In this document: piece after piece, positions 22,987 to 62,538 of the stretch
How positions within the stretch are numbered: position 1 is the first letter of the stretch
Layout: each line of letters opens with the position of its first letter
Sequence record: NC_054914.1
Length of the DNA stretch: 64,000 bases
Reading direction: 5' to 3' (one strand)
Origin: Escherichia phage vB_EcoM-fFiEco06
Program-made: the position numbers and the translations under genes
Notes under the pieces: model-generated
Told to the model about the DNA's origin: nothing
Database searches by the model: none
Seen by the model: the letters and a program-made list of their open reading frames with translations, nothing else

Positions 22987-23447
22987 AGAGAGTCTCTTAA
23001 TAGGTTTAACACATCAATAAATTCAGCTTCGGTTAGTATTGTATCATCTTTTGTTAGACCACTAGCCATGCTATGCTTCAAAATTTTTCCTTTAGAGGCT
23101 TGTAAGGCATCACGAAACCCCTTGTTTTGAATCGCTGCTTCAAAATATGCATTTGTATACAACTCTTTCCATGCTGCAGAGTATCTTGAAAAGGGAATTC
23201 CAAGCCAGAAAAGCGTCCCACGGTCCGCAGCTCTTGCATAAGCTCTTCCACTTTGCTGGGCGGCCAAGCCGGAGAGCCCAAATATACGTTTTTGTTGTTC
23301 AACATTTTTCACCTTGCATCCTTGGAGGAATCCTTCAAGACCTCCGAATTGAATACCATCCATGACGAAAGGCCATTGGGCGAAATTACTTAATGCACAC
23401 GATGGCCATCTAAAATTGCTTCTAATCTCTAACTCAGACATTTTCAA
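22983..23447 (-). CDS. NADAR/YbiA-like domain protein (30.3-like)
   Basis: 154 aa; LSNFAQWPFVMDG…EGFLQGCK resembles the conserved SNFAxWP…EHYFQ core of YbiA/NADAR. Confidence 0.6.
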   Translation of the reverse strand: MKMSELEIRSNFRWPSCALSNFAQWPFVMDGIQFGGLEGFLQGCKVKNVEQQKRIFGLSGLAAQQSGRAYARAADRGTLFWLGIPFSRYSAAWKELYTNAYFEAAIQNKGFRDALQASKGKILKHSMASGLTKDDTILTEAEFIDVLNLLRDSL

Positions 23448-23640
23448 TACTTATAATTTCAACATCAGCCCAATGACCATAGCAAGGAAGACGAAATTCA
23501 ACTGGCCAGTTAGGGTCCTTTTCTAATATAATAGACTTAACTTGTGGTTCTTCATGTTCATCAGTATACGGATTTTTATCTGTTACTTTATATGTGACCT
23601 TAATGTACTGAATTCCAAAAATCTTATTAATTATATTCAT
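23434..23640 (-). CDS. Hypothetical protein
   Basis: 68-aa ORF. Confidence 0.45.
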   Translation of the reverse strand: MNIINKIFGIQYIKVTYKVTDKNPYTDEHEEPQVKSIILEKDPNWPVEFRLPCYGHWADVEIISIENV

Positions 23641-53640: not shown

Positions 53641-54441
53641 ATGGCAGTAGTTGGTGTTCCTGGTTGGATTGGAAGTTCAGCCGCAAATGAAACAGGACAG
53701 CGCTGGATGAGTCAAGCGGCTGGTCAATTAAGATTGGGTGTTCCTTGCTGGATGAGTCAATTTGCAGGTCGCTCACGAGAAATTATTCACACCCTTGGAG
53801 CGGACCATAACTTCAATGGTCAATGGTTCCGAGATAGATGTTTTGAGGCAGGTAGTGCACCTATAGTGTTTAATATTACCGGAAATTTGGTATCATATTC
53901 TAGAGACGTTCCTTTATTCTTCATGTATGGAGATACACCTAATGAATATGTTCAGTTGAATATTGGTGGCGGCGTCCATATGTGGGGTAGAGGTGGACAA
54001 GGTGGATGGACCCATTCCGGCGGAGATGGTAATGGTCAACAAGGTGGTCATTGTATTCAAAATGACATCGGTGGACGATTAAGAATTAATAACGGTGGAG
54101 TAATTTGTGGTGGAGGTGGAGGTGGAGGTGGTATCGCTTATCGTCCTCACTCTGGTGCAAATTGGCAAGATATTGGTGGTGGTGGAGGAAGACCATTTGG
54201 CCCAGGAGGAGGCGGAGGTTATTCCGGCGGCGCAGCTTCTTATGATGGCCCAGGAGGTGGTTATAATTATGGTAATGCTCACTCTGGCCAGGGTGGTGAT
54301 GCTGGCGCAAATGGACAAAATGCCTGGTATGATGGCGGTAAAGTTCTAAAAGTTGGAGCTGGTGGCGCTGCCGGATATGCTGTTATAGGATCAGCTCCAA
54401 CATGGCAAAATGTTGGAGTAATATATGGTCCAAGGGTATAA
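53641..54441 (+). CDS. 38: gp38 tail-fibre tip adhesin, glycine-rich (T2-type)
   Basis: 266 aa with several poly-Gly motifs (GGGGGGGG, GGGGG, GGGGG) separated by variable segments. Confidence 0.88.
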
Positions 54442-60103: not shown

Positions 60104-60190
60104 TCAACTATTTTTAGAACCTAAAATACCAAAGTTTTTAAGATTGTTACGATAGAACTGCATCACATGTTCGTTATGGAAATTACTCAT
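60104..60190 (-). CDS. stp: Stp peptide (suppressor of three-prime phosphatase)
   Basis: 28-codon [21 protein letters not shown]… matching my recollection of the T4 Stp N-terminus; hand-translated. Confidence 0.75.
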
Positions 60191-60648
60191 TAATATGCCT
60201 GCAAAACAAATTTAAAGTTATCAGCCAACATACGGTTCATTTCTTCAAGTGTTTGATACTCAGAATGATGATTACGAGTAAACGCCAACGCTAACTGACC
60301 TTTATCAAATCCTGTCGTCAGAGGTTTCATCTTAGAAGCAGGAAGATAAAATACTGTGTATGGAACATTATTATTTGCAATAGTACGCGCAAGCTGAGAC
60401 CGACGCTGACGAATATGACTTAGAACCGCACTGAATCCTTGCTTAGAACGCTGATTACCTACATAAAATCGTGCAGACACGCACGGATTACTAAATGGAC
60501 GACCATCTAATTTACTCACTAAAAAGTAAAATCCAGGTTTAGACAAAATGTCTTTGTGCGGAGTTCCCAAAAACCACTCACCACCCTTGATTGTACCAAT
60601 AACAGTTGCGCCTGCATTATTCAGATCAGTAACAGTCATATATTTCAT
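60190..60648 (-). CDS. ndd: Ndd nucleoid disruption protein
   Basis: About 152 aa from MKYMTVTDL…; the track ORF has a 16-residue upstream extension. Confidence 0.85.
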
Positions 60649-60708
60649 ATTAATTTCCTCTAAATTATTTTCTACTCCAAGGCCGTATGAATACACACGG
60701 CCGATAAA

Positions 60709-60968
60709 TTAATCGTCGCAGTCGACGCTCAATTCCCAGAATTCTTCTACGGTATAAGTTTCAGTATCATTTTCAATACAGAAACGTTCATTACTATTAT
60801 TTTCTAAAGTAGCGTTAACTGTCATTTTCTCGCTAGTGCTTTATTTTCTAAAGTAGCGTTAACTGTCATTTTCTCGCTAGTGCTCTTAAGAGGTGAAATA
60901 CGAATTAACTGATCACCGTTATCTAAACAAAAAATTTCACCAACTTTTACATCTTTAAAACTTTTCAT
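60709..60968 (-). pseudogene. Small ORF (ancestral 71 aa) frameshifted by a 44-bp tandem duplication
   Basis: ATG at 60968 with GAGGTGA SD; duplication shifts frame to a premature TGA (48 aa); removing one copy restores a 71-codon ORF ending at 60709. Confidence 0.55.
60797..60884. repeat. Perfect 44-bp direct tandem duplication (2 copies)
   Basis: ttattttctaaagtagcgttaactgtcattttctcgctagtgct at 60797-60840 and 60841-60884. Confidence 0.9.
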
Positions 60969-61083
60969 AATTCACCTCAAGGAGTATAAAATCCAAATGC
61001 AGTTGTTGACCATCCCATCCAATATGGGAAATTTGCACCAATGTAAAACATAAGAATATAAAACCAACCACTCAGCAAATTCA

Positions 61084-61281
61084 TCATTTTACACCATTCC
61101 AAATTGTTTCAACCACGGATTTTAAACCATTTTGATGAATATCCATTCCGACTACCGTCATCAAATAAATTCCAACTACAACTGAACCTAAGGCAAAAAT
61201 CAGCATGAAAATGAATAAAGCCGGAAAAATATTATCGAAAAACCATTCAATAAATGTAAAAGCACTGCGTTTACGCTTCAT
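61084..61281 (-). CDS. Small membrane protein
   Basis: Start taken at MKRKRSAF… (GAGG SD); two hydrophobic segments. Confidence 0.5.
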   Translation of the reverse strand: MKRKRSAFTFIEWFFDNIFPALFIFMLIFALGSVVVGIYLMTVVGMDIHQNGLKSVVETIWNGVK

Positions 61282-61288
61282 ATTTTCC

Positions 61289-61402
61289 TCACATAAATCC
61301 AAAGTAAACGTTTAATACATCAATCATTAAAACGATTGGGAATATACTCAAAACTATTAGTATTATAACTACATTCCATATAGCTTTAACAATCTTTTTC
61401 AT
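61289..61402 (-). CDS. Small membrane protein (37 aa)
   Basis: Internal ATG with GGAGG SD inside the 61289..61534 track ORF. Confidence 0.45.
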   Translation of the reverse strand: MKKIVKAIWNVVIILIVLSIFPIVLMIDVLNVYFGFM

Positions 61403-61420
61403 TTTCTGTTCCTCCGTAGT

Positions 61421-61465
61421 TGATAGGGTAATAGTACCACGGAAGAACAGTCTTGTAAACAACTT
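61421..61465 (-). promoter_or_regulatory. Early promoter
   Basis: Minus strand GTTTACAAGACTGTTCTTCCGTGGTACTATTACC (-35 and -10). Confidence 0.45.
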
Positions 61466-61642
61466 TAAAAATATTCGTAATAAATGTGAATACCAACTAC
61501 TACCGCTGAAACTTGCACAACCCACCACGCACAAGCAATAAGTACAGAATTCAAAATTTTCATAATAACCTCATCACAAAAGTAAATGTTAAACAAATTA
61601 CTGGAATACTAATTAACCAAACAAAACACCACCATAATGAAC

Positions 61643-61926: not shown

Positions 61927-61985
61927 TAGTTGTATAGTACCACGGTCCTTGTGGTATGTAAACTGTTTTGTGAAAATTTTTTAAA
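61927..61985 (-). promoter_or_regulatory. Early promoter with UP element
   Basis: Third copy of the gatagttgtatagtacca … tgtaaac … ttttgtgaaaa cassette. Confidence 0.5.
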
Positions 61986-62538
61986 TGGAAAGATACCATC
62001 CATTGTAGTTGCTTTTTCTTACAACCTTACGAAGGTCTTCTCTGTCACCGATGAACTTCGGAGTGTACTGGATAACACCTGGATGAATTTCTTTAGTGTT
62101 GAATATAATTATACAGTCAGCGACTTGATGATTTAGAATGGGCCCTAGATTTATTCCAGAACCGTATGGATACTCTCCGCTGCATCCTGTTGTTACAGAA
62201 ATCCAACGTGAGCCAGTTTGATGTGTCTTAACTTCTACACGAAGCCCACAGTATTTTGGATGTGCTAAAACATCCCACGCGTATGTATATGGATCATCGA
62301 CATCTTCTTGACCTTTATTAACATACCCGCTTAGCCAATCTGCTACAAAAAACTCTGCGTATACAGCAATACGACATCTTTCAATAACTTCTGCTTTATC
62401 CTGGTTCGGGTTTTGTTTTAAAGAGTATCTTGCAGTATCAGCAATTTTGACCTTCATTTCACTAGTCAAGTCACTGTTCGATAGGGTAAATGTCGGAATC
62501 TGAAATAGTCTCTGTAAACCCGGATTCGTTTTCTGCAT
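61981..62538 (-). CDS. denB: Endonuclease IV (DenB)
   Basis: 185 aa; assignment by size and position next to rIIB. Confidence 0.7.
   Translation of the reverse strand: MQKTNPGLQRLFQIPTFTLSNSDLTSEMKVKIADTARYSLKQNPNQDKAEVIERCRIAVYAEFFVADWLSGYVNKGQEDVDDPYTYAWDVLAHPKYCGLRVEVKTHQTGSRWISVTTGCSGEYPYGSGINLGPILNHQVADCIIIFNTKEIHPGVIQYTPKFIGDREDLRKVVRKSNYNGWYLSI

What the first reader, a model, noticed from the sequence alone, without database searches (positions are those of the whole stretch)
60709..60968. 44-bp perfect tandem duplication frameshifts a small conserved-looking ORF
Two exact adjacent copies of a 44-bp unit (60797..60840 and 60841..60884) lie inside a minus-strand ORF with a good SD. 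With both copies the product stops after 48 residues. Removing one copy yields a 71-aa acidic protein (MKSFKDVKVGEIFCLDNGDQLIRISPLKSTSEKMTVNATLENNSNERFCIENDTETYTVEEFWELSVDCDD). This could be recent pseudogenisation of an early accessory gene, a reversible on/off switch by repeat gain and loss, or an assembly artefact.
Basis: seen in the sequence. Interest (0 to 1): 0.5.

Follow-up and report, generated by a model that had tools for sequence, protein, structure and literature searches.

The report
Tandem duplication breaks phage gene ndd.1
A perfect 44-base tandem duplication has frameshifted ndd.1, a small dispensable early gene of unknown function, in two nearly identical T4-like coliphages; it is a real but ordinary loss-of-function mutation.

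Summary
Two exact adjacent 44-nt copies (60797-60840, 60841-60884) lie inside the minus-strand ortholog of T4 ndd.1, between ndd and ndd.2. They split it into a 48-aa ORF and a 38-aa ORF that overlap by ATGA. Removing one copy gives a 216-nt gene identical to ndd.1 of phage ASO78A.

The window is not the database record it matches best. It differs from vB_EcoM-fHoEco02 (MG781191.1) at 43 positions and fits the sister isolate fFiEco06. The duplication is therefore present in two separately assembled isolates. Its junction occurs in 1 of 50,697 phage records and in none of three other collections. The other 492 matching phage records align over 857 nt (901 minus 44) in all 59 rows shown.

Intact ndd.1 is under strong purifying selection (pN/pS 0.08). 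It is predicted to form one small SH3-like beta-barrel. It is dispensable in the laboratory, and other rare natural alleles break it in different ways.

Best reading: a recent, heritable duplication that pseudogenises an accessory gene. I found no support for a reversible switch. An assembly artefact is unlikely but cannot be excluded without reads. GenBank already annotates both fragments. Low interest.

The parts
60797..60840 (-). Copy 1 of the 44-nt unit (+ strand TTATTTTCTAAAGTAGCGTTAACTGTCATTTTCTCGCTAGTGCT). In gene orientation it is the second, promoter-distal copy. It carries the ATG (60823-60825) that starts the 38-aa ORF and the TGA (60822-60824) that ends the 48-aa ORF.
60841..60884 (-). 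Copy 2 of the 44-nt unit, 100% identical to copy 1. In gene orientation it is the first copy and is read in the native frame (codons 29-43, STSEKMTVNATLEN plus 2 nt).
60822..60968 (-). 48-aa ORF: Ndd.1 residues 1-42 plus the frameshifted tail KALARK. It equals HE2_273 of fHoEco02 and KMC06_gp146 of fFiEco06.
60709..60825 (-). 38-aa ORF: Ndd.1 residues 34-71. It equals HE2_272 of fHoEco02 and KMC06_gp147 of fFiEco06.
60822..60825 (-). ATGA overlap of the stop of the 48-aa ORF and the start of the 38-aa ORF. It lies within A-AAA-TGA, a hidden stop in the -1 frame at native Met34-Thr35.
   Evidence: read from sequence
60973..60978 (-). Shine-Dalgarno sequence GAGGTG, 4 nt upstream of the ndd.1 ATG (60966-60968).
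   Evidence: (conserved in all aligned orthologs)
60890..60978 (-). Predicted mRNA hairpin. The SD and AUG (60964-60978) pair with codons 22-27 (60890-60904). The 3' arm ends 5 nt before the duplicated segment.
   Evidence: I3, 15 nt, 87% complementary; -25 kcal/mol, z -2.73
60190..60648 (-). ndd (nucleoid disruption protein), the downstream neighbour that fixes the synteny.
60977..61087 (-). ndd.2 ortholog, the upstream neighbour.
   Evidence: HE2_274 at record 164041-164151, i.e. window +103064

Best explanation
This is a genuine, recent, heritable spontaneous mutation. A 44-nt segment of ndd.1 (codons 29-43, the variable loop and third beta-strand of a small SH3-like protein) was duplicated in tandem in the common ancestor of phages fFiEco06 and fHoEco02. 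Because 44 is not a multiple of 3, translation leaves the native frame after residue 42, reads KALARK and stops at a TGA hidden in the Met34-Thr35 codons of the second copy. Full-length Ndd.1 is therefore no longer made as the main product, and the gene is a pseudogene in this lineage. The phage tolerates this because ndd.1 is a non-essential early accessory gene. Shown: the duplication, its effect on the reading frame, its restriction to this lineage, and the conservation and dispensability of the gene. Inferred: that the mutation abolishes function, and that it is neutral or nearly neutral on the hosts used.
Against: No reads, PCR or expression data were available, so neither the physical reality of the two copies nor the loss of function is directly shown. 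The junction has zero microhomology. That is unusual for slippage or short-homology duplications, and it differs from the two natural ndd.1 deletions found here, which join at short repeats shared by both sides (alignment overlaps of 9 and 10 nt). The two carriers come from the same laboratory, host and pipeline. The ATGA overlap and the A-AAA-TGA context leave room for some expression of the C-terminal part.
Confidence: 0.8

Rival explanations
1. The gene is split but still partly functional. The two overlapping ORFs are both translated. Either ribosomes that terminate at the TGA restart at the overlapping ATG (ATGA coupling), or tRNA-Lys slips -1 on A-AAA before the stop. The slip would restore the native C-terminal frame and give an 86-aa Ndd.1 with a 15-residue insertion in its variable loop. 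The fragments or the fusion would keep some activity.
For: The stop and start overlap as ATGA at 60822-60825. Together the two ORFs cover residues 1-71, with residues 34-42 present twice. The duplicated segment is the most variable, indel-prone part of the family alignment and has the lowest model confidence. An independent 1-nt-deletion allele in two ENA samples ends at the same TGA and keeps the same 38-aa ORF. In Logan contig L025 a deletion places an early promoter and SD cassette directly on Met34. From general knowledge, runs of A before a stop codon are known shifty sites.
Against: That both frameshift alleles stop at this TGA follows simply from their shared -1 phase. Met34 is not conserved: it is Pro (CCG) in several natural alleles, so there is no conserved internal start. 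The SD-like GAG lies only 3 nt from the ATG. The model is a single small barrel, so halves of 48 and 38 aa are unlikely to fold alone. There are no expression data.
Confidence: 0.08
2. The duplication is an assembly artefact. The two ends of a circularly permuted contig overlapped by 44 nt and were joined without trimming when the contig was rotated to the T4 start point.
For: The copies are perfect and the junction has zero microhomology, which is what an untrimmed end overlap would give. The records were rotated to start at rIIA and end at rIIB. The published contig lengths equal the deposited lengths. No other tandem overlap exists anywhere in the 167-kb record that could be the closure point, and the record ends do not overlap. 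The junction is not seen in any independent data set.
Against: The same duplication at the same nucleotide is in two separately sequenced and assembled isolates that differ at 43 positions in this 64 kb alone. The 300-nt reads at 145-271x span the whole 88-nt array. The depositors inspected the locus and annotated both fragments.
Confidence: 0.07
3. The duplication is a reversible on/off switch. Gain and loss of the 44-nt unit by unequal recombination or slippage toggles ndd.1 expression, for example to escape a host defence that senses Ndd.1.
For: Loss of either copy restores the wild-type gene exactly. T4-type phages recombine at high frequency (general knowledge). The unit length is not a multiple of 3. 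ndd.1 is broken repeatedly in nature around the same GAGAAAATGA stretch.
Against: Only one shallow lineage carries the duplication, among 493 close records and three large collections. There are never more than two copies. The other natural disruptions are irreversible deletions. The allele stayed fixed while the two isolates diverged. No defence that senses Ndd.1 is known, and the one paper found that mentions ndd.1 gives its product as unknown.
Confidence: 0.04

Closest known systems
T4 ndd.1 (UniProt-style name Y16K_BPT4; Pfam PF26909 Phage_T4_Y16K; PHROG 2183), an uncharacterised 8-kDa early protein encoded between ndd and ndd.2
   Same: Same position in the gene 52-ac-stp-ndd-ndd.1-ndd.2 block and the same sequence. 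The single-copy form is 100% identical to ASO78A/JK23 Ndd.1 and 93-99% identical to the other Tequatrovirus orthologs listed.
   Different: Here the ORF is interrupted by a 44-nt tandem duplication and is annotated as two fragments.
Spontaneous duplication-type frameshift mutations of T-even phages, as described classically for T4 rII and lysozyme (general knowledge, not checked in papers here)
   Same: A short internal segment is repeated in tandem, shifts the frame and can revert by loss of one copy.
   Different: Those events are usually explained by misalignment at short repeats. This junction has no shared base at all.
Other natural ndd.1 null alleles found here: ENA contigs L005/L006, Logan contigs L025 and L027, and T4 strain protein P0058
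   Same: Rare, lineage-restricted disruptions of the same accessory gene. The 1-nt deletion allele ends at the same hidden TGA and leaves the same 38-aa ORF.
   Different: They are a 1-nt deletion, a 55-nt deletion and a 5' deletion of roughly 520 nt, the last two joined at short shared repeats, plus a C-terminal frameshift. None is a duplication.
Repeat-mediated phase variation (contingency loci) of bacteria and some phages
   Same: A repeat whose unit is not a multiple of 3 sits inside a coding region, so copy number sets the frame.
   Different: Only two copies of a long unique unit, one lineage, no copy-number polymorphism among relatives.

Membership tests
Ndd.1 / PF26909 Phage_T4_Y16K / PHROG 2183 | Full-length sequence similarity to the family | tested here: met
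   PHROG 2183 at E 1.2e-37 over residues 1-71. 100% identity to ASO78A_261. PF26909 is precomputed on both fragments and on all homologs. The local Pfam copy gave no hit to this family.
Ndd.1 / PF26909 Phage_T4_Y16K / PHROG 2183 | Position between ndd and ndd.2 in the gene 52-rIIB early region | tested here: met
   Annotated neighbours in fHoEco02, ASO78A and PP01.
Ndd.1 / PF26909 Phage_T4_Y16K / PHROG 2183 | One uninterrupted ORF of about 66-81 codons | tested here: not met
   The gene is split into 48-aa and 38-aa ORFs, and no frame is open across both copies. It is a disrupted member of the family.
Tandem-duplication mutation | Two adjacent identical copies where close relatives have one | tested here: met
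   All 59 other rows shown out of 492 other records span 44 nt or a few more less than the query. The junction is found in 1 record only.
Tandem-duplication mutation | Short homology at the endpoints, as expected for slippage or short-homology recombination | tested here: not met
   The match run is exactly 44 nt, and the flanks in ASO78A are identical.
Phase-variable (contingency) repeat locus | Copy-number polymorphism among close relatives or recurrence in independent lineages | tested here: not met
   only fHoEco02 and the window (fFiEco06) carry the junction.
Phase-variable (contingency) repeat locus | Mixed copy numbers within one phage population | not testable with these tools
   This needs the raw reads or PCR on lysates.
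Contig-closure assembly artefact | Present in one assembly only, absent from independent assemblies of the same or a sister genome | tested here: not met
   Present in the window and in MG781191.1, which differ at 43 positions. The products are recorded for both phages.
Contig-closure assembly artefact | No single read spans both copies with both flanks | not testable with these tools
The exact-product look-up found no independently assembled contig with the 48-aa ORF.

The most novel reading that the evidence does not exclude
The two-ORF form of ndd.1 is not dead. Either it yields Ndd.1 activity at a low, tunable level, through restart at the ATGA overlap or a -1 slip of tRNA-Lys on A-AAA-UGA that makes an 86-aa protein with a loop insertion. 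Or it is a reversible off-state that lets the phage avoid a host defence triggered by Ndd.1. The cluster of independent natural rearrangements around GAGAAAATGA would then reflect selection to modulate this gene.
Probability: 0.05. Interest if true: 0.5.

Novelty: new member of a known kind. Interest (0 to 1): 0.12.

Why it matters
It matters little beyond careful annotation. The two short "hypothetical proteins" in fFiEco06 and fHoEco02 are halves of one broken ndd.1 gene, and the cause is a 44-nt tandem duplication that the genome paper does not mention. These two therapeutic-candidate phages are natural ndd.1 nulls. They could be compared with close relatives if a function for Ndd.1 is ever sought. 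The survey adds that ndd.1 is strongly constrained in most T4-like phages yet is occasionally lost.

Tried and rejected
1. I first took the window to be MG781191.1 (100% over 901 nt). Coordinate bookkeeping failed, and a full alignment showed 33 mismatches and 6 gap openings. The window fits fFiEco06 instead. MG781190 is not in the phage collection.

2. The junction was searched in phages, IMG/VR, metagenome contigs and GTDB genomes. Only MG781191.1 has it.

3. The exact-product look-up of the 48-aa ORF found no contig on record. The 51-aa protein P0002 in its cluster ends at a contig end in a non-homologous tail, probably adapter-derived (my inference). It is irrelevant.

4. The 38-aa CDS of phage WL-3 looked like another split allele, but the alignment shows an intact gene, so it is only an annotation choice.

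5. A search for the ENA 1-nt-deletion allele among phage records gave no match.

7. A whole-genome scan for another tandem overlap that could mark the contig closure point found none, so that route neither confirms nor excludes the artefact.

8. A literature search for ndd.1 found one relevant mention. A search on T4 tandem duplications returned nothing I used.

Full report
**Observation**

Reading 60500-61200, Tandem Repeats Finder and the repeat finder agree. The unit TTATTTTCTAAAGTAGCGTTAACTGTCATTTTCTCGCTAGTGCT occurs twice, head to tail, at 60797-60840 and 60841-60884, with 100% identity.
- The run of positions matching at offset 44 is exactly 44 long. The repeat therefore cannot be extended by a single base on either side, and the junction has no microhomology.
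- With this base composition, about 6e-21 such duplications are expected in 64 kb.
- On the minus strand an ORF with a GAGGTG Shine-Dalgarno sequence 4 nt upstream runs from 60968 to 60822 and encodes 48 residues.
- A second ORF runs from 60825 to 60709 and encodes 38 residues. The stop of the first and the start of the second overlap as ATGA.

**Where the window comes from**

The 901 nt around the site match Escherichia phage vB_EcoM-fHoEco02 (MG781191.1) at 100% in one piece. The window as a whole is not that record.
- It aligns to positions 103067-167064 with 33 mismatches and 6 gap openings.
- Most differences lie in a dense patch in hoc. There are also single changes in tail-fibre genes, a 1-nt indel and a 3-nt indel.
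- The window has an intact 68-aa ORF at 23434-23640 that is broken in fHoEco02.
- All of this fits the published description of the sister isolate fFiEco06. That phage has 167,076 bp, is 99.96% identical to fHoEco02, has FE6_212 intact and differs in tail-fibre proteins.
- fFiEco06 is absent from the searchable phage collection.
- The exact 48-aa and 38-aa products are recorded for both phages.

So the duplication is present, base for base, in two isolates. They came from different wastewater samples and were sequenced and assembled separately, with MiSeq 2x300 reads and A5-miseq at 271x and 145x coverage.

**What the gene is**

The neighbours are gene 52, 52.1, ac, stp and ndd downstream, and ndd.2, ndd.2a, ndd.5, ndd.6, denB and rIIB upstream. 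This is the T4 ndd.1 position.
- The depositors already annotate the two ORFs as "similar to amino acids 1-47" and "34-71" of T4 Ndd.1. The genome paper does not mention the locus or the duplication.
- The single-copy protein hits PHROG 2183 (function unknown) at E 1e-37. Its relatives carry the precomputed Pfam family PF26909, Phage_T4_Y16K.
- The single-copy gene is 216/216 nt identical to ndd.1 of phage ASO78A, including both flanks of the duplicated segment.

**How unusual the allele is**

- A 44-mer centred on the junction matches one of 50,697 phage records, fHoEco02.
- The junction 30-mer is absent from IMG/VR, the JGI metagenome contigs and the GTDB genomes.
- All 59 other rows shown, out of the 492 other records that match the region, span 854-857 nt against the 901-nt query, in two pieces. 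That is 44 nt or a few more shorter.

**Constraint on ndd.1**

- tblastn finds the protein in 775 phage records, and 772 cover at least 80% of it in one place. Identities are 90-100% in one large group of records and about 40-53% in another.
- Twelve distinct intact alleles from phage, IMG/VR and metagenome contigs give pN/pS 0.079. Nineteen of the 25 variable sites are at third codon positions.
- An exhaustive HMMER search finds only 8 representatives at 50% clustering, so the family is narrow.
- An AlphaFold model built on 18 homologs has mean pLDDT 76.6 and pTM 0.59. It shows one compact domain with five beta-strands and a C-terminal helix.
- The duplicated codons 29-43 cover the loop that is most variable and indel-prone in the family alignment, plus the third strand.
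- A break at residues 34-42 therefore cuts a single small domain in the middle.

**Dispensability and other null alleles**

The T4 deletion saDelta9 removes 52.1, ac, stp, ndd, ndd.1-ndd.6 and denB without harming growth on standard laboratory strains (PMC6071114). While following proteins that cluster with the two fragments I found other rare natural disruptions:
- Two ENA metagenome contigs from different samples carry a 1-nt deletion in a TTT run at codons 24-25. It ends at the same TGA and leaves the same 38-aa ORF.
- A Logan contig (L027) has a 55-nt deletion joined at a short GAAAATGA-containing repeat.
- Another Logan contig (L025) has a 5' deletion of roughly 520 nt joined at a 9-nt AGAAAATGA repeat. 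It fuses an upstream early promoter and SD cassette to Met34.
- A T4 strain carries a C-terminal frameshift.
- The 38-aa CDS annotated in phage WL-3 is only an annotation choice, because its gene is intact.

ndd.1 is thus kept by selection in most lineages and is occasionally lost, as expected for an accessory gene.

**Most likely explanation (confidence about 0.8)**

A spontaneous tandem duplication arose in the common ancestor of fFiEco06 and fHoEco02 and was inherited by both. It shifts the frame after residue 42 and ends full-length Ndd.1 synthesis. The phage tolerates this because the gene is non-essential. The perfect identity of the copies and the shallow clade indicate a recent event. 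The molecular origin is open. With no shared base at the junction, simple slippage at a short repeat does not explain it.

**Rival explanations**

- Residual expression (about 0.08). The ATGA overlap allows restart at Met34. The context A-AAA-TGA would also let tRNA-Lys slip -1 before the stop. That would restore the native frame and give an 86-aa protein with a 15-residue loop insertion. This is inference only. Met34 is Pro in several natural alleles, so no conserved internal start exists. That two alleles share this stop follows from their shared frame phase.
- Assembly artefact (about 0.07). An untrimmed 44-nt contig-end overlap would look exactly like this, and no other closure point is visible in the rotated record. 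Against it, the same junction appears in two assemblies of non-identical genomes, and the 300-nt reads span the array.
- Reversible switch (about 0.04). Loss of one copy would restore the gene exactly. However, there is no recurrence, no copy-number variation among relatives and no known selective agent.

**Comparison with what is known, and verdict**

The locus is a disrupted member of the Ndd.1 family. The event belongs to the familiar class of duplication-type frameshift mutations in T-even phages. It fails the tests for a contingency locus. The fragments are already annotated in GenBank. What is added here is the cause (the 44-nt duplication), its presence in both sister phages, and the context of constraint and occasional loss. 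Interest is low (0.12). The finding is real but ordinary.

Noticed in passing
window 60890-60978 (minus strand): The SD and start codon of ndd.1 (GAGGUGAAUUAUGAA) can pair with codons 22-27 (UUCGUAUUUCACCUC) about 60 nt downstream. The fold is -25 kcal/mol with z -2.73. The ENA 1-nt-deletion allele lies in the 3' arm. This may be translational masking of the kind described for some T4 genes. Covariation was not tested.
   Followed up: partly
whole window versus MG781191.1 (window 4333-4572, 23562, 53964-53966 and scattered SNPs): The window is not the record it matches best. It differs from fHoEco02 at 43 alignment columns: a dense patch of about 30 changes in hoc (which looks like a recombination patch), a 1-nt indel, a 3-nt indel in the gp38 adhesin region and SNPs in the tail-fibre region. 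It fits fFiEco06.
   Followed up: yes
window 23434-23640 (minus strand): This 68-aa ORF is intact here but broken by a 1-nt insertion in fHoEco02. It corresponds to FE6_212 of the genome paper.
   Followed up: yes
L025:880-1010 (Logan SRR15275264) versus window 60830 and 61399: A natural deletion joined at a 9-nt AGAAAATGA repeat removes ndd.2, ndd.2a, the ndd.4-like gene and the first 33 codons of ndd.1. It puts a T4-type early promoter and SD cassette directly in front of Met34.
   Followed up: partly
L027:460-582 (Logan SRR23253251); L005:1994-2208 and L006:469-683 (ENA): These are further independent ndd.1 null alleles: a 55-nt deletion joined at a GAAAATGA-containing repeat, and a 1-nt deletion in a TTT run shared by two metagenome samples.
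   Followed up: yes
ndd.1 codon 34 (window 60823-60825 and 60867-60869): Residue 34 is Met (ATG) or Pro (CCG) among natural alleles, a two-nucleotide difference with no intermediate seen in the sample.
   Followed up: no
database names of Ndd.1 orthologs: Many orthologs are named "naphthalene 1,2-dioxygenase", "outer membrane protein" or "putative 12.8 kDa protein" in GenBank/RefSeq. No family search here supports any of these names. They look like propagated misannotations.
   Followed up: partly
window 61399-61480 and 61930-62000 (minus strand): Repeated cassettes of a T4 early-promoter-like sequence plus ACGGAGGA SD precede successive small ndd.x genes. They read through as spurious ORFs ("...PWYYYPINYGGTENEK", "...PWYYTTISYGGVKMK"). 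One of them supplied one side of the repeat at the L025 deletion junction.
   Followed up: no
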